From a virus, in the IMG/VR virus record IMGVR_UViG_3300018080_000121, positions 57,293-121,292 of that record: DNA of 64,000 bases; one strand, given 5' to 3'. The position numbers were made by a program, and so were the translations under genes. Of this stretch, positions 2,551-40,340 are shown in pieces. How positions within the stretch are numbered: position 1 is the first letter of the stretch; every line of letters begins with the position of its first letter. The notes under the pieces are model-generated. The model was given only the letters and a program-made list of their open reading frames with translations. It was not told the origin of the DNA and did no database searches.

Positions 2551-3879
2551 ATGGATCAGTTAATACCGCAGTGGTATAGAAGATATGGCGAGTATGTGAA
2601 CTCATTTAGATCCTTCCCGTTAAAAGACGATGGTTTGAAACCTGTTGAAAGAAGACTTTTAATTACCGCTTATTTAGTTGCTCGTGATAAGCGAGTTAAG
2701 TCAGCTAGTGTGGATGGAACTTGTATTGCGAAATACCATCCACATGGTTCATGTTATGGAACTATTGTACAGTTGGTCAAAAATGGTTTTCTTGAAGGTC
2801 AAGGAAATTTTGGAAATAGCTTGGGAGTAGATCCATCACCTCCAGCAGCTATGAGATACACAGAGTGTAAGCTACCAAAGTCCACCCTTGATATGGCTTT
2901 TAAGTACATTAAACATGTTCCATACATCGAAGGTGAACTCAGTAATGAGGAACCTGCATTTCTACCAACAATGTTTCCATTCTGTCTTATGGGAAGGGAG
3001 TACACTCAAGGAATTGGATTTGGTTTTAGAACCTACGTTCCTTGTTACCGTCTTGAAGATCTTCATAAGAGACTTATGTTTCTTTTGAAGGTCAGAAAGA
3101 CCAAACCAACAATTCGACCCATAACCGATTGTCAAATCCTGTCTCCGGATACTGAGTTGGAAACTTTGCTAACGACCGGTAAAGCTACGATAAAGGTTAA
3201 AGGAGTTATCGTAATAACCAAAACACACTGCAAAGCAAGACTCAAATCTTGGCCACCGGGTAGACGATTCGAGTCCATTCTGGGTAAATTCAAAAAAGAA
3301 CTTGAGAACAACGACATTGGTTTTATCGACCAATCGAATGATGAGGTCGGTACAGCAATAGATTTTACAGTCTTGAAGCAAAGAAATCGAGATAAAATCT
3401 TCAGCTCATTTGTGAAGAAACTCGAAGCCGCTGTAACCGGAACTATTTCATTTGAAGCTATTACGGTTGATAGGAATAGTCATGTGAATCTAACCTCAGT
3501 AGATGAAATGCTCCTTGGGACATATGTAAATTTCAAGGAAGTAAATGAAGCCATGCTGAAATATGAAATTCAAAAGAATAACTCCATGATTAAAGAGTTG
3601 CAAGATTTGGAGAAAATTAGAGCTCCATTATCTGCAATTCTAAAACAGACACCTGGTAGACTTACAAAGAAATTACTTGAAAAGTCTATTAAGTTTATCT
3701 CTGATAAGTCTGGAGTTCCCGTAAAGACAGTTAAGGAGTTGATAGCAAAATATCATATTCAAAAACTCTTAACAGTTGATACGGATACAGGTGAATTAAG
3801 ACAAAAAGGAAAGGAACTAACGAGTTCCTTAAAGAATATTGACCAGTTTGTACTGAGTCAATATGACGCGGTAAAATAG
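2551..3879 (+). CDS. type II DNA topoisomerase, breakage-reunion subunit (GyrA/ParC; T4 gp52-like, no CTD)
   Basis: DGLKPVERR, YHPHG, GQGNFG, catalytic AAMRYTE, PTMFP; 442 aa. Confidence 0.95.
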   Translation: MDQLIPQWYRRYGEYVNSFRSFPLKDDGLKPVERRLLITAYLVARDKRVKSASVDGTCIAKYHPHGSCYGTIVQLVKNGFLEGQGNFGNSLGVDPSPPAAMRYTECKLPKSTLDMAFKYIKHVPYIEGELSNEEPAFLPTMFPFCLMGREYTQGIGFGFRTYVPCYRLEDLHKRLMFLLKVRKTKPTIRPITDCQILSPDTELETLLTTGKATIKVKGVIVITKTHCKARLKSWPPGRRFESILGKFKKELENNDIGFIDQSNDEVGTAIDFTVLKQRNRDKIFSSFVKKLEAAVTGTISFEAITVDRNSHVNLTSVDEMLLGTYVNFKEVNEAMLKYEIQKNNSMIKELQDLEKIRAPLSAILKQTPGRLTKKLLEKSIKFISDKSGVPVKTVKELIAKYHIQKLLTVDTDTGELRQKGKELTSSLKNIDQFVLSQYDAVK

Positions 3880-35692: not shown

Positions 35693-36688
35693 ATGATTAA
35701 GGAAATCAAAACAAGTAAATATAGGATTTCATTTAACACAGAAACCGGGGAAGAAGAATTGGAAGGGATTAATGGAAACGACGATCCCTTTTCTCTGGAA
35801 TTTCCGAGTATGCTGGACATTGGAATTATGGGTAGCTGTCCGAATAAATGTAAGATGTGTTACCAAGGAGATAAGGTGGAGCCACATATGACTCTGGATC
35901 TGTTCAAACAAATCATTGACGAAGCAAAAGATGGTACATGTCAATGTGCGTTGGGTGGTCGTGGAGATCCAAATCTTCATCCGCAATTCGAGGAGATCAT
36001 TAAATACGCATGTGAAAATGGTGTGATTCCAAACTACACTACCAGCGGTAATGGTCTTACAGATGAACAAATAGAATCATCCAAAAAGTATTGCGGAGCT
36101 GTTGCTGTTAGCGACTATGGAAAGGAGTTCACATTCTCAGCTTTAAACAGACTGATGGATGCAGAAGTCAAAACAAATATTCATCTAGTCTTTTCTGCGC
36201 CAAACTTCATGAAGTCGATAGCCATTTTAGATGGTCAAGATGCATGGAGTGGTCGTGTCAATATAGAGAAGTTAAATGCTGTGATATTTCTCTTGTTTAA
36301 GCCACAAGGTCGTGGTAGAGATTTGGAGAAATGGATTCCAACTGATCTCATGCTGGAATTATTCAGCTATGGAATTGCACTTCCAAAAACGAAATTTAAA
36401 GTTGGGATGGATAGCTGCTTAGTAAACCATATCATGAGGTTTAGAAAACTCAACAAGTTGGAACAGGAGTACGTTGACACTTGTGAGGGTGCAAGGATGA
36501 GTTGTTACATTACACCAGATGGGAGACTTGTTCCTTGTTCATTTGGAAACCATGATGAATATGGAAGTGATATTAAACATCACGGAATAAGGAGAGTATG
36601 GAATGACGGACTTGCATTCAAAGGATTCAGAAAGACTCTTAGATCAAGACCAAATCAATGCCCTTTTGAAACGGACGGTTGGCGTTAG
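35693..36688 (+). CDS. radical SAM enzyme with SPASM/Twitch-type C-terminus
   Basis: CPNKCKMC, ALGGRGDP, TCEGARMSCYITPDGRLVPCSF...NQCP. Confidence 0.9.
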   Translation: MIKEIKTSKYRISFNTETGEEELEGINGNDDPFSLEFPSMLDIGIMGSCPNKCKMCYQGDKVEPHMTLDLFKQIIDEAKDGTCQCALGGRGDPNLHPQFEEIIKYACENGVIPNYTTSGNGLTDEQIESSKKYCGAVAVSDYGKEFTFSALNRLMDAEVKTNIHLVFSAPNFMKSIAILDGQDAWSGRVNIEKLNAVIFLLFKPQGRGRDLEKWIPTDLMLELFSYGIALPKTKFKVGMDSCLVNHIMRFRKLNKLEQEYVDTCEGARMSCYITPDGRLVPCSFGNHDEYGSDIKHHGIRRVWNDGLAFKGFRKTLRSRPNQCPFETDGWR

Positions 36689-38464: not shown

Positions 38465-39226
38465 ATGGCGAACAAAAAACCCGCGCTACATGAAGTACTG
38501 GCTGTTGTTGGTGACCTCAAGGGAGCCAAGGATAAAATTAAGATTGAAACTGAGAACACATTCAGAAAGAATGTTTCTCTTTTCCAAGGATCTTCCAGAC
38601 GACTCGAAATGTTCGAGGACTCCAGAAAACAGGAGGAAATGTCTGAGTCCAAATCTCTTACCACTACGGTAATGGAGAAGCTGACTTACATGAAGAAATC
38701 CTTCATTAAGTTCTGGGACGCCAAGGTCCAGAAAGAAGGAACTGCACAGTTGGCGCAAGCTGACATTGTTGTTGATGGGGAAACCCTAGCAACAAATATT
38801 CCTGTGTATTTTCTTTTGGAACTCGAGACGGAGTTGAAAGAACTGAGACGAGTTCTTGATGCTATTCCTACTCTGGCTCAGGGACCTACCTGGATCGAGG
38901 ATCCTACGGAACGAGCTGGGGTTTATAAAGCTCAGGATTCTACCATCACAATGAAGACTGAAAAGAGATATCAGCACAATGTGATGGTACCTGCTACCGA
39001 ACATCACCCTGCTCAGGTCCGCGAATGGACTGAGGATGTTCCTGTTGGTCGTTATGTGGCTGACCAGTGGAGTGGAATGATGTCTTCTGCTGAGAAATCT
39101 GCATTGATCGCAAGACTTGACAAACTATACCGCGCTGTTAAGAAAGCGAGACAGCGAGCAAATACCCAAGAAGTTGTCAAGGGGAACATTGGAGCAGTCT
39201 TGTTCAAATACATTCTGGGTGAATAG
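38465..39226 (+). CDS. conserved helical hypothetical protein
   Basis: 253 aa; AAAGGAGG RBS; motifs IPVYFLLELE, IPTL, ATEHHPAQV, DVPVG...WSG, LYRAVKKARQRAN. Confidence 0.7.
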   Translation: MANKKPALHEVLAVVGDLKGAKDKIKIETENTFRKNVSLFQGSSRRLEMFEDSRKQEEMSESKSLTTTVMEKLTYMKKSFIKFWDAKVQKEGTAQLAQADIVVDGETLATNIPVYFLLELETELKELRRVLDAIPTLAQGPTWIEDPTERAGVYKAQDSTITMKTEKRYQHNVMVPATEHHPAQVREWTEDVPVGRYVADQWSGMMSSAEKSALIARLDKLYRAVKKARQRANTQEVVKGNIGAVLFKYILGE

Positions 39227-39240
39227 AAAGGAGATAGAAC

Positions 39241-39375
39241 ATGGGATTCTTTGAAGCGATTTGGTGGATCATCAAGAGCTTTGTAACATTCAATACGGAT
39301 CTTTATTCCGACGAGCTCATTCGTCGAGCCAACATCAGGTTTGAGAAAGAGCAGAGAATGAAGGGTTACAGATAA
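39241..39375 (+). CDS. small protein (44 aa, not in ORF track)
   Basis: AAAGGAG RBS; MGFFEAIWWIIKSFVTFNTDLYSDELIRRANIRFEKEQRMKGYR. Confidence 0.5.
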   Translation: MGFFEAIWWIIKSFVTFNTDLYSDELIRRANIRFEKEQRMKGYR

Positions 39376-39639
39376 AGTCGTGAAACCATTTTTACAGGTT
39401 AGAACATATTATAAATGGAAGAGTTTATAATCGACTAACCTGTAGAGGAGAACACTTATGAAATAACAGTTTAACATTGCTGGTTAAGCTTATACTTATA
39501 CTTATCATCTACGCGGCATGAGGCTCACATTAAATATGATAAATACTCAGAGAAGGGGGTTATAAAAATTAGATGAAACCCCCGGAGAGTTTATAAACGG
39601 GCCCTTGAGCAGCCGCTTATACTTATCTTATTGCACCAG

Positions 39640-39836
39640 CCAAACTTATCACGCATTCAACTGTTGACACATGGTGCTGTGACTCAAACAATTTACCTCG
39701 GTTGTCGGTTCAAGTCCGACCTGGGCGGCCATAATAGTATCAAAATGTTGGTATTATTATGAACGCCCAGTACCTCAATGGAAGAGGAGAGGTCAGTGTC
39801 CTACTGAAGTCCAGTATTCATAGATGCGATAGTTGG
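39640..39836 (+). ncRNA. circularly permuted tRNA-like RNA (YrlA-like or permuted tRNA)
   Basis: T-arm GTCGG-TTCAAGT-CCGAC 39704-20; acceptor 3' CTGGGCG+G+CCA 39721-31; acceptor 5' CGCCCAG 39764-70; D-arm CCTC-AATGGAA-GAGG 39773-87; anticodon stem ACCTC 39695-99 / GAGGT 39789-93. Confidence 0.75.
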
Positions 39837-39926
39837 GTGGATATTCGGGTGTTCGCACCCACTTGCATTATATGCTTGAAACATATAAATGGATGATGAA
39901 TATAAACGACAGGGGGAGTAGAGAAG

Positions 39927-40340
39927 GTGATCTCTACTCCCCCATTTTCCGTCGGAGGGAATCTTATGGAAGAAGAATACCACCATATCATTGGTGTTAG
40001 AACTGTACGCGCTGATAGCGGAAGACCAAAGTTATCATGCGACTTTGTAATCACAATTACGCCAGACCAAATTACTAAATCCCGCCTTGCTGAATCAATG
40101 TACAAAAACAAGTTATGGAAAACCACTTACCGAGAAGCGATTGAAGCGGTGGGTTTACAAGAGTTGGATGCTGCACTTTGGGCTTCCAAAATCAGAGCCA
40201 GTTCAAATATGATGACAATTCACAAATTTGTAACAAACTTTGAAATGACTAGAGAGGATTTTGATATCTTTGTACAAGCTGCGAATGTGTCAGATGGAAC
40301 TCTTAAGAAACTCATGGATGGAAAGATTGGAGGTGGTTAA
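39927..40340 (+). CDS. hypothetical protein
   Basis: likely ATG start near 39966 behind GGAGG. Confidence 0.55.
   Translation: MISTPPFSVGGNLMEEEYHHIIGVRTVRADSGRPKLSCDFVITITPDQITKSRLAESMYKNKLWKTTYREAIEAVGLQELDAALWASKIRASSNMMTIHKFVTNFEMTREDFDIFVQAANVSDGTLKKLMDGKIGGG

What the first reader, a model, noticed from the sequence alone, without database searches (positions are those of the whole stretch)
39640..39836. Circularly permuted tRNA-like RNA with closed acceptor stem and no normal anticodon loop
Seen, in order: anticodon-stem 3' strand ACCTC, variable GGTT, perfect T-arm (GTCGG TTCAAGT CCGAC), acceptor 3' strand CTGGGCG-G-CCA, a 14-bp hairpin (39730-43/39748-61, two G-U), acceptor 5' strand CGCCCAG, TA, D-arm (CCTC AATGGAA GAGG), A, GAGGT. 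Beyond the anticodon stem the flanks can pair further (GACAC 39666-70/GTGTC 39796-800; CGCAT 39652-56/ATGCG 39824-28; CCAA/TTGG). Established: this topology matches bacterial YrlA Y RNAs and permuted tRNA genes. An encoded CCA would let RNase P and 3' trimming yield a two-piece, chargeable RNA. No Ro60/TROVE gene is visible in the window. Inference: a tRNA mimic, possibly a decoy for anticodon nucleases or for tRNA-sensing defences.
Basis: partly seen in the sequence, partly recalled or inferred. Interest (0 to 1): 0.85.

Follow-up and report, generated by a model that had tools for sequence, protein, structure and literature searches.

The report
Phage tRNA-mimic RNA beside DUF7873 gene
The flagged stretch is a real "back-to-front" tRNA look-alike, the core of a roughly 470-base RNA that follows one unstudied gene (DUF7873) in hundreds of phages and bacteria that mostly lack Ro60, the usual partner of such RNAs; it probably marks an undescribed RNA-protein pair.

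Summary
Observation confirmed. Window 39695-39793 (+) folds into a circularly permuted tRNA cloverleaf (z = -6.8): anticodon-stem 3' strand, variable loop, T arm, acceptor 3' strand plus G-CCA, 14-bp insert hairpin, acceptor 5' strand, U8-A9, D arm, anticodon-stem 5' strand. Flanking helices replace the anticodon loop.

It is not an isolated oddity. The upstream gene (38465-39226) is a DUF7873 protein. The same permuted module lies just downstream, on the same strand, in essentially all 80 related viral loci, in seven cultured phages (phiRSL1, Klebsiella FBKp24, Rhizobium RHph_Y65 and others) and in 30 of 32 bacterial chromosomal loci. Every stem shows compensatory changes, and so does the 15:48 tertiary pair.

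The conserved RNA is larger than flagged, about 39480-39950. It adds leader repeats, a closing helix and a terminal 13-bp hairpin with an AGGNNA loop.

It resembles YrlA Y RNAs but fails YrlA membership: 28.9 bits against a cut-off of 69, no CGAA motif, and no Ro60 in this record or in 8 of 8 near-complete relatives.

N-CCA is kept in 54 of 58 phage relatives but not in bacterial ones, so RNase P opening is plausible here and unproven. Function is unknown. DUF7873 has no recognisable fold.

This scan has already reported the same pair on other DNA (at least 145 genomes).

The parts
38465..39226 (+). DUF7873 (PF25283) gene, 253 aa; the conserved genetic partner of the RNA
   Evidence: Pfam E = 7.8e-71. 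AF2 model pLDDT 90.8 with no convincing PDB or BFVD fold match. Homologues in 348 viral contigs and at least 570 bacterial species genomes.
39480..39509 (+). Leader block with 6-nt-period repeats (GCTTATACTTATACTTAT); likely 5' part of the RNA
   Evidence: Block shared with L008 and L013. The 12-mer occurs 3 times in the window, only in this locus, against 0.36 expected, and nowhere else in the 121-kb record. Lag-6 identity is 0.40 here. Family leaders average 0.334 against 0.282 for controls, and 10 of 58 exceed the controls' 95th percentile.
39555..39583 (+). Leader hairpin GGGGG / CCCCC
   Evidence: Present in the full-length MFE fold. L008 has CCGG/CCGG at the aligned place, a compensatory change.
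39615..39650 (+). Second repeat block (GCTTATACTTATCTTATTGCACCAGCCAAACTTATCA); counterpart of the family motif TTGaCC..CAGCTTCA
39647..39694 (+). 5' strand of the long closing helix, then an A-rich internal-loop strand (CAAACAATTT)
   Evidence: MFE helices. Compensatory changes against L008. An A-rich 5' loop strand recurs across relatives.
39695..39703 (+). Anticodon-stem 3' strand ACCTC plus variable loop GGTT (T48 pairs with A15)
   Evidence: Levitt pair 15:48 across relatives: G:C 44, A:T 11, A:C 3.
39704..39720 (+). T arm (5-bp stem, loop TTCAAGT)
   Evidence: 100% paired in 58 relatives; 4 of 5 pairs carry double changes.
39721..39731 (+). Acceptor 3' strand CTGGGCG, discriminator G, CCA
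   Evidence: Acceptor stem 99.8% paired, and all 7 pairs covary. CCA in 54 of 58.
39730..39761 (+). Insert: 14-bp A/U-rich hairpin capping the acceptor stem; a variable and probably dispensable segment
   Evidence: Insert length is 9-95 nt in relatives, with no sequence conservation.
39764..39793 (+). Acceptor 5' strand CGCCCAG, U8-A9, D arm (CCTC AATGGAA GAGG), A26, anticodon-stem 5' strand GAGGT
   Evidence: 'TA' at positions 8-9 in 48 of 58.
39794..39843 (+). 3' strand of the closing helix, with the conserved CTGAAG (39804-09)
   Evidence: A YUGAR motif sits 10-15 nt after the core in most relatives.
39848..39893 (+). UUCG-tetraloop hairpin (39848-61) and an anticodon-arm-like hairpin (39866-91, 7-nt loop CUUGAAA). 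They occupy the place where 26 of 57 relatives carry a CCA-less tRNA-like second module
   Evidence: Fold. Second module in relatives.
39912..39950 (+). Terminal 13-bp G/C-rich hairpin with hexaloop AGGTGA, followed by ATTTTCC; conserved end hairpin and probable terminator
   Evidence: Terminator-like scan. In relatives: 11-14-bp stems with unrelated sequences, and an AGG-containing loop in 37 of 58 automatically picked hairpins.

Best explanation
The flagged element is the tRNA-shaped core of a non-coding RNA of about 470 nt (about 39480-39950, + strand). This RNA is the conserved companion of the DUF7873 gene just upstream.

Shown:
- The RNA family is real and structurally constrained, with a cloverleaf in permuted order, a tRNA-like elbow and the 15:48 tertiary pair.
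- It sits just downstream of DUF7873 on the same strand in phages and bacteria.
- It lacks an anticodon loop, a Ro60 gene and the Ro60-binding CGAA motif.

Inferred:
- The RNA is transcribed after, or together with, DUF7873.
- Its flanks zip into a long helix in place of the anticodon loop, and the T and D loops form a tRNA elbow.
- The 7-bp acceptor stem stacked on the T arm, followed by an encoded N-CCA and a freely varying insert, is recognised by host RNase P and 3' trimming enzymes. The acceptor cap is then removed. This leaves a nicked, two-piece RNA with a free CCA end, held together by the closing helix, as shown experimentally for Mycobacterium smegmatis YrlA.
- DUF7873 binds the RNA. 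Candidate sites are the conserved terminal AGGNNA hairpin and the internal-loop motifs. The result would be a Ro60-independent particle that presents a tRNA-shaped head to a tRNA-recognising host factor, acting as adapter or decoy. This would support the phage's tRNA and translation economy, since relatives place the module inside tRNA gene clusters.
For: Structure: MFE cloverleaf, z = -6.8. Whole-region fold, z = -5.3.

Conservation and covariation: in 58 non-redundant cores the T stem is 100% paired, the acceptor 99.8% and the D stem 94.8%. Twenty of 21 pairs show double changes. The covariation score is 0.816 against 0.218 for shuffles, and at most 0.196 for slid registers. The 15:48 pair covaries.

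Linkage to DUF7873:
- The strict scan hits 69 of 80 viral loci at the same place and strand, with 2 hits elsewhere.
- Model R2 recovers nearly all the rest, plus seven cultured phages.
- In whole-record scans of 16 phage genomes, all 14 hits of 58 bits or more lie next to DUF7873, and the best hit does so in 15 of 16.
- 30 of 32 bacterial loci have it downstream of the gene.
- No other neighbouring gene is conserved.
- The own record has a single copy.

No Ro60: no TROVE in the 121-kb record, and none in 8 of 8 relatives that are at least 90% complete. No CGAA motif anywhere in 39470-39960.

Processing signals: 7-bp acceptor stem throughout. N-CCA in 54 of 58, T at -1 in 30 of 58, insert of 9-95 nt. 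[quoted passage not shown]
Against: - No transcript, binding or cleavage data exist. RNA-protein binding is inferred from synteny alone.
- Part of the covariation statistic is circular, because the aligned cores were picked by a scan that required pairing.
- CCA is not universal. Bacterial relatives and some phage relatives have CTC, CTT or CTG after the discriminator and short closed loops, so processing to a CCA end cannot be the family-wide mechanism.
- In this window, C-A of the CCA is paired inside the insert hairpin.
- DUF7873 has no recognisable RNA-binding or enzymatic fold and no fused forms.
- Here the gene and the RNA are separated by about 250 nt, including a 44-aa ORF.
- A later check recorded in this scan's notes priced the protein-binds-RNA reading at only 22 in 100.
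Confidence: 0.5

Rival explanations
1. It is an ordinary YrlA-type Y RNA. It works with Ro60/Rsr encoded either in the missing ~60% of this phage genome or by the host, tethering Ro60 to PNPase.
For: YrlA is the best Rfam match: 28.9 bits, E = 5.6e-4, model positions 21-89. The T/acceptor/D order is the same. One relative (G013) carries a TROVE gene. Phage Ro60-Yrl systems are known (PMC12135203).
Against: The score is far below the gathering score of 69, and only the tRNA-like part of the model matches. None of 20 relatives reaches it. There is no CGAA / GNCGAAN0-1G motif in 39470-39960. There is no TROVE in the 121 kb, and none in 8 of 8 near-complete relatives. In G013 a separate, full-length YrlA-like match (41.9 bits) lies elsewhere in the locus, so the two RNAs coexist there as distinct elements. 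The conserved neighbour is DUF7873, not Ro60.
Confidence: 0.08
2. It is a cis-acting element, not a trans-acting RNP. It would be a structured 3' UTR or processing and stability signal for the DUF7873 message or for tRNA-cluster transcripts, for example an RNase P entry site plus a terminator.
For: It always lies downstream on the same strand as the gene. It is often embedded in tRNA arrays. The terminal hairpin is followed by a U-tract.
Against: A simple processing signal would not need a full tRNA elbow with a covarying 15:48 pair, a long closing helix, leader repeats and a conserved hexaloop. The pair also occurs in bacterial chromosomes away from tRNA clusters. Here a separate ORF and about 250 nt lie between the gene and the RNA.
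Confidence: 0.17
3. It is a free tRNA decoy or sponge for host tRNA-directed defence or processing enzymes (acceptor-end-modifying toxins, RNase P, the CCA-adding enzyme), acting without DUF7873.
For: tRNA shape with an N-CCA in the phage clade. Location among phage tRNA genes, which are thought to offset host attacks on tRNAs (PMC7824862).
Against: It has no anticodon loop, so it cannot bait anticodon nucleases. The tight linkage to DUF7873, and its presence in hundreds of bacterial chromosomes, argue for a two-part, not purely anti-defence, system. CCA is lost in many relatives.
Confidence: 0.12
4. It is a permuted or split tRNA gene, or a two-piece tmRNA-like RNA, that is charged and acts on the ribosome.
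For: The gene order matches permuted tRNA and two-piece tmRNA genes: T arm, acceptor 3' strand, CCA, spacer, acceptor 5' strand. The stem has 7 bp and the CCA is encoded.
Against: ARAGORN finds no tRNA or tmRNA here. No tmRNA family matches even at E <= 10. G3:U70 occurs in 1 of 58, the discriminator is T 25, G 20, A 9, C 4, and the acceptor pairs vary freely, so no aminoacyl-tRNA synthetase identity set is conserved. There is no 7-nt anticodon loop closing the anticodon stem.
Confidence: 0.04
5. It is a chance juxtaposition, or a decayed remnant of two tandem tRNA genes.
For: Tandem tRNAs do give weak matches to the same models, at 18-31 bits. Chen et al. noted the same effect.
Against: The two acceptor strands are perfectly complementary to each other. 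The module scores 74.7 bits. It is conserved with compensatory changes across phages and bacteria.
Confidence: 0.01

Closest known systems
YrlA (Y RNA-like A, Rfam RF02553) with Ro60/Rsr; especially Mycobacterium smegmatis YrlA (Chen et al. 2014, PMC4201824)
   Same: A permuted tRNA-like domain (T arm, capped acceptor stem, D arm) whose anticodon side is closed by the RNA's own flanks. tRNA tertiary signatures are present, including the covarying 15:48 pair. M. smegmatis YrlA also has a 7-bp acceptor stem, is cut by RNase P and receives CCA in vivo. Tandem or multiple modules occur in relatives.
   Different: No Ro60 partner and no CGAA Ro-binding motif. It scores 28.9 bits against a cut-off of 69. 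The conserved neighbour is DUF7873. The RNA is much longer (about 300-470 nt against about 110), with leader repeats, a conserved terminal AGGNNA hairpin and, in many relatives, an extra CCA-less tRNA-like module. The CCA is encoded, not added.
Two-piece tmRNA from circularly permuted ssrA genes (alpha-proteobacteria, cyanobacteria); from my own knowledge
   Same: The gene order is the same: T arm, acceptor 3' strand, CCA, excised spacer, acceptor 5' strand. A long helix replaces the anticodon arm. A dedicated small protein partner exists (SmpB there).
   Different: No G3:U70. It has a true 4-bp D stem. No tag reading frame or pseudoknots were detected. ARAGORN and the Rfam tmRNA models are negative. 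DUF7873 is not SmpB-like.
Phage Ro60-Yrl particles (Thermus phage phiLo; PMC12135203) and mycobacteriophage Y RNAs
   Same: Phage-encoded small structured RNAs paired with a phage protein, proposed to hijack a host RNA enzyme (PNPase).
   Different: Those RNAs are defined by the CGAA stem-bulge and by binding Ro60. Neither feature is present here.
Stable RNAs of unknown role inside phage tRNA clusters (T4 species 1 and 2 RNAs) and large phage ncRNAs found near tRNA genes (GOLLD, ROOL); from my own knowledge
   Same: Non-coding RNAs that travel with phage tRNA genes and are likely matured by the tRNA-processing machinery.
   Different: No sequence or Rfam relationship was found: no GOLLD or ROOL match at gathering score. 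Those RNAs have no dedicated conserved protein neighbour.

Membership tests
YrlA (Rfam RF02553) | Permuted tRNA-like domain: T stem-loop, acceptor-like stem-loop and D stem-loop in that order | tested here: met
   MFE fold. The YrlA model aligns at positions 21-89.
YrlA (Rfam RF02553) | Score at or above the curated gathering score (69 bits) | tested here: not met
   28.9 bits in the window. None of 20 related loci reports YrlA at gathering score.
YrlA (Rfam RF02553) | GNCGAAN0-1G / CGAA Ro60-binding motif near the 5' end (PMC4201824; PMC12135203) | tested here: not met
   No CGAA anywhere in 39470-39960. Relatives carry an RYGAAAG motif, but on the 3' side of the core.
YrlA (Rfam RF02553) | Encoded within about 4 kb of a Ro60/TROVE gene on the same strand | tested here: not met
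   No TROVE match in the 121-kb record, which is 39% complete. Zero of 8 relatives that are at least 90% complete have one, and 1 of 16 overall.
Two-piece tmRNA | G3:U70 alanine identity pair in the acceptor stem | tested here: not met
   The window has C3:G70. G3:U70 occurs in 1 of 58 relatives.
Two-piece tmRNA | Recognised by tmRNA detectors or models, including permuted forms | tested here: not met
   ARAGORN finds 0 genes. No tmRNA-clan match even at E <= 10. The same tools find true tmRNAs in L022 and L043.
Permuted or split tRNA gene giving a decoding tRNA | After processing, a 7-nt anticodon loop closes a 5-bp anticodon stem | tested here: not met
   The anticodon stem opens into a long irregular helix made by the flanks.
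Permuted or split tRNA gene giving a decoding tRNA | Conserved aminoacylation identity elements | tested here: not met
   Discriminator T 25, G 20, A 9, C 4. All 7 acceptor pairs vary.
DUF7873-linked tRNA-mimic RNA (provisional family, defined in this scan only) | Permuted tRNA-like module within a few hundred nt downstream of a DUF7873 gene on the same strand | tested here: met
   The gene ends at 39226 and the module starts at 39695. R2 scores 74.7 bits, the only hit in the 121-kb record.
DUF7873-linked tRNA-mimic RNA (provisional family, defined in this scan only) | Terminal 11-14-bp G/C-rich hairpin with an AGGNNA-type loop | tested here: met
   39912-39943, 13 bp, loop AGGTGA.
DUF7873-linked tRNA-mimic RNA (provisional family, defined in this scan only) | Physical binding of the DUF7873 protein to the RNA | not testable with these tools
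   There is only genomic linkage. No co-fold or binding assay is available.

The most novel reading that the evidence does not exclude
DUF7873 and this RNA form a new, Ro60-independent class of tRNA-mimic ribonucleoprotein shared by large phages and many bacteria. In the phage clade, RNase P opens the capped acceptor stem to expose an encoded CCA end. The particle then engages a component of the tRNA or translation machinery (RNase P, the CCA-adding enzyme, the ribosome or an acceptor-end-directed toxin) to benefit phage protein synthesis.
Probability: 0.3. Interest if true: 0.85.

Novelty: new variant of a known kind. Interest (0 to 1): 0.72.

Why it matters
tRNA-shaped Y RNAs have so far been understood only as partners of Ro60. 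Here the same RNA design is tied instead to an uncharacterised protein family. That family occurs in at least 348 viral contigs and at least 570 bacterial species genomes, including cultured, tractable phages (phiRSL1, RHph_Y65, Gordonia and Arthrobacter phages, Klebsiella FBKp24).

If the pair is a particle, it is a widespread, unstudied RNP built on tRNA mimicry. It would assign a function to a DUF and explain unannotated gaps in phage tRNA regions. It would also correct apparent mis-annotations, such as a short "hypothetical protein" CDS and a "suppressor tRNA" laid over the RNA.

The encoded CCA and the variable insert make a clear, cheap prediction: RNase P cleavage to a two-piece RNA.

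Tried and rejected
- ARAGORN on the window and the whole record found no tRNA or tmRNA. At a lowered threshold it gave only two weak calls elsewhere in the record.
- Rfam at gathering score found nothing in the window.
- blastn of the region against 50,697 phage records found no match.
- An exact-motif scan and a single-protein locus search returned only identical contigs.
- DUF7873 fold searches against PDB (Foldseek), BFVD and 48,161 chains (VIA-align) gave only generic helical matches, with best Z = 8.1 to a designed protein. A profile search against PDB sequences found nothing. The Atlas returned only DUF7873 clusters. No longer fused forms were found, which is weak evidence. The PADLOC call failed on a coordinate slip and was not repeated.
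- RtcB: none in the record.
- Sigma-70 promoter scan: uninformative, with one hit inside the RNA. The phage has its own multisubunit RNA polymerase.
- The GCTTATACTTAT repeat as a general phage promoter: rejected, because it occurs only in this locus.
- Conserved neighbours other than DUF7873: none. The analysis of bacterial neighbours was unreliable because of spurious ORFs in high-GC DNA.
- Box C/D or K-turn reading of CUGA plus UGAUGA: considered and not pursued, because the order is reversed and only a 15-bit snoRNA match supports it.
- Literature: no paper mentions DUF7873, and none describes a permuted tRNA-like RNA in phages outside Ro60 systems. Burroughs and Aravind 2016 and the 2020 Ro60 review are not held.

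Full report
**Context.** The window is the last 64 kb of a 121-kb IMG/VR phage record that CheckV estimates to be 39% complete. It encodes multisubunit RNA polymerase pieces, a terminase, baseplate proteins and a topoisomerase, so it is a large or jumbo phage. It has 39% G+C and no canonical tRNA genes.

**1. The observation.**
The one correction is that the anticodon-stem 5' strand GAGGT lies at 39789-39793.
- Folding 39690-39800 without constraints returns exactly the proposed four-way junction at -47.6 kcal/mol. Shuffles average -25.2 +/- 3.3 (z = -6.8), and none of 200 folds as well.
- With the flanks included, the anticodon stem is extended by a long irregular helix, 39647-84 with 39808-43.
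- The closest distinct relative (L008) supports GACU/AGUC at 39681-84/39808-11 through three compensatory changes.
- The 14-bp insert hairpin with two G-U pairs is as described.

**2. What it is: an RNA family linked to DUF7873.**
- The gene immediately upstream (38465-39226) is a full-length DUF7873 protein, Pfam E = 7.8e-71.
- Using an alignment of 30 homologues, I fetched 80 viral loci out of 348 positives.
- A strict pattern scan required a 5-bp T stem with a TTCRANN loop, a 7-nt acceptor strand, a 4-140 nt gap, a perfectly pairing 7-nt partner and a 4-bp D stem. It found the permuted module in 69 of the 80 loci, always about 100-300 nt downstream of DUF7873 on the same strand. There were only two hits anywhere else in about 1.1 Mb.
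- A single-sequence covariance model found the same places.
- A model built from 58 non-redundant cores (R2) recovered almost all loci that the pattern scan missed. L034 scored only 25 bits, and L063 is cut 119 nt after the gene.
- R2 also hit seven cultured phages: Ralstonia phiRSL1, Klebsiella FBKp24, Rhizobium RHph_Y65, Vibrio D517, Gordonia Fryberger, Arthrobacter Mimi and, weakly, Pseudanabaena PA-SR01.
- In whole-record scans of 16 large phage genomes, all 14 hits of 58 bits or more lie beside DUF7873, and the best hit does so in 15 of 16.
- DUF7873 also occurs in at least 570 bacterial species genomes, among them actinomycetes, cyanobacteria, myxobacteria and planctomycetes. Thirty of 32 tested loci carry the RNA downstream, usually as two tandem permuted modules. 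The two without it are contigs that end just after the gene.
- No other neighbouring gene is conserved. The bacterial neighbour analysis was unreliable.

**3. Covariation.**
- On the 58-sequence alignment, the T stem is 100% paired, the acceptor stem 99.8% and the D stem 94.8%.
- Twenty of 21 pairs show changes on both sides. The covariation score is 0.816, against 0.218 +/- 0.012 for shuffles and at most 0.196 when partners are slid.
- These sequences were chosen by a scan that demanded pairing, so the percentages are inflated. The consistent genomic position and the independent covariance-model hits are not affected by that.
- tRNA tertiary signatures are kept: U8-A9 in 48 of 58, GG in the D loop and TTC in the T loop.
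- The Levitt pair 15:48 covaries (G:C 44, A:T 11, A:C 3). The window has the A15:T48 version. This argues for a genuine L-shaped elbow.

**4. The RNA is larger than the flagged stretch.** Comparison of the flanks shows:
- Leader tracts with a 6-nt period. The window has GCTTATACTTAT three times, and only in this locus of the whole record. The family-wide lag-6 signal is modest: 0.334 against 0.282, with 10 of 58 above the controls' 95th percentile.
- A small leader hairpin.
- An A-rich 5' internal-loop strand opposite a conserved YUGAR (CTGAAG at 39804).
- An RYGAAAG motif further 3' in many relatives, which is absent from the window.
- In 26 of 57 relatives, a normal-order tRNA-like module 49-86 nt after the core. 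It never ends in CCA and has a weak acceptor top. The window has a UUCG hairpin and an anticodon-arm-like hairpin with loop CUUGAAA at that place instead.
- A terminal hairpin of 11-14 bp whose stem sequence differs everywhere, but whose loop is AGGNNA-like in 37 of 58 automatically picked cases. The window's copy is 39912-39943 with loop AGGTGA, followed by ATTTTCC.

The whole 39470-39960 region folds with z = -5.3. I therefore place the RNA at about 39480-39950. The next gene starts at ATG 39966, behind a GGAGGG ribosome-binding site.

**5. Comparison with known families.**
- *YrlA.* It is the best Rfam match, but only for the tRNA-like part of the model (positions 21-89), at 28.9 bits against a gathering score of 69. 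None of 20 relatives reaches that score.
  - The Ro60-binding CGAA/GNCGAAN0-1G motif is described near the 5' end of YrlA RNAs (PMC4201824) and shown to matter for a phage Ro60 (PMC12135203). It is absent from the entire region.
  - No TROVE gene is in the 121-kb record, in any of 8 relatives that are at least 90% complete, or in 15 of the 16 large relatives searched overall.
  - The one relative with TROVE (G013) has an additional, separate full-length YrlA-like match of 41.9 bits about 1.1 kb from its DUF7873 RNA. That suggests two distinct systems.
- *Two-piece tmRNA.* It shares the gene order, but G3:U70 occurs in 1 of 58 and all detectors are negative.
- *Decoding permuted tRNA.* Excluded by the missing anticodon loop and the lack of any conserved identity set.

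**6. Mechanism.**
- *Shown:* a conserved, tRNA-shaped, anticodon-less RNA genetically coupled to DUF7873 and not to Ro60.
- *Inferred:* RNase P processing and an RNP.
- In the phage clade nearest the window, the four bases after the acceptor 3' strand are N-CCA in 54 of 58. The discriminator varies, the following insert ranges from 9 to 95 nt with no conservation, and the base before the 5' strand is T in 30 of 58. The ordinary tRNA genes of these phages also encode CCA.
- A conserved CCA next to an unconstrained spacer is most simply explained by removal of the spacer by RNase P and 3' trimming. Chen et al. demonstrated this for M. smegmatis YrlA, the one YrlA with a 7-bp stem.
- Against generalising: bacterial relatives and some phage relatives have CTC, CTT or CTG in short closed loops. 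An open CCA end is therefore at most a clade-specific elaboration.
- Charging is unlikely, because no identity elements are conserved.
- DUF7873 gives a confident model (pLDDT 90.8) of four long helices plus a long beta-hairpin. It has no informative structural neighbour, no PDB sequence relative and no fused forms. Its invariant basic helix (K-K-A-R-Q-R-A-N) is compatible with RNA binding, but that is only an inference.

**7. Earlier notes of this scan.** After forming my reading, I found that the scan has reported this DUF7873-RNA pair many times on other DNA: 246 notes in at least 145 genomes. Those notes include the CCA, the hexamer tracts and the end hairpin. One later check priced the "protein binds RNA, Ro60-independent unit" claim at 22 in 100. 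My results agree with those notes on what is seen. I tested linkage, covariation, Ro60 absence and Rfam absence independently here. Compared with many of those cases, this window has a reduced, single-module version.

**Verdict.** This is a new variant of the tRNA-mimic (Y-RNA-like) kind, with a different and uncharacterised protein partner. I found it neither in Rfam 15 nor in the searchable literature. Function and mechanism remain inferred.

Noticed in passing
window 39241-39375 (+): A 44-codon ORF with a strong ribosome-binding site (AAGGAG, 7 nt, ATG) and a hydrophobic N-terminus sits between the DUF7873 gene and the RNA. The nearest relative, L008, has no room for it, so it looks like a lineage-specific insertion.
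   Followed up: partly
L076 5089-5193 and G013:C1:84817-85548: One related phage carries a TROVE/Ro60 gene and a separate full-length YrlA-like match (41.9 bits), in addition to its DUF7873-linked RNA (L076 3887-4002). The two kinds of tRNA-mimic RNA coexist in one genome.
   Followed up: partly
L089 3509-3588 (Klebsiella phage FBKp24, MW394391.1): The record annotates a 'tRNA-Sup-TTA' that ends exactly at the CCA of the permuted module (T arm 3561-77, acceptor strand 3578-84, ACCA 3585-88). This is probably a mis-call that borrows the mimic's T arm. A second, weaker permuted module lies at 3347-3431.
   Followed up: partly
L091 2428-2523 (Vibrio phage D517, OZ196640.1): An annotated 96-nt 'hypothetical protein' CDS overlaps the RNA module (R2 hit at 2452-2551, 58.8 bits). 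It is likely a spurious gene call.
   Followed up: no
L022 6300-6688; L043 5511-5901: Phage-encoded tmRNA genes lie 2-3 kb from the DUF7873-RNA module in two relatives. Many relatives embed the module in tRNA arrays of up to 13 genes.
   Followed up: no
G009:C1:159401-159484: A second strong copy of the permuted module (56.9 bits) lies about 30 kb from the DUF7873-linked copy in a complete 209-kb phage. Its neighbours were not examined.
   Followed up: no
window 35693-36688 (+): A radical SAM / SPASM-domain protein gene lies 2 kb upstream, among small unknown ORFs. It is conserved only in L013.
   Followed up: no
L093 2302-2381 and 2456-2557 (Arthrobacter phage Mimi); bacterial loci such as L152 4776-4863 and 4947-5028: Actinophage and bacterial versions carry two tandem permuted modules. 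The window and its closest viral relatives carry one, often followed by a normal-order CCA-less tRNA-like module. The family's architecture is modular.
   Followed up: partly
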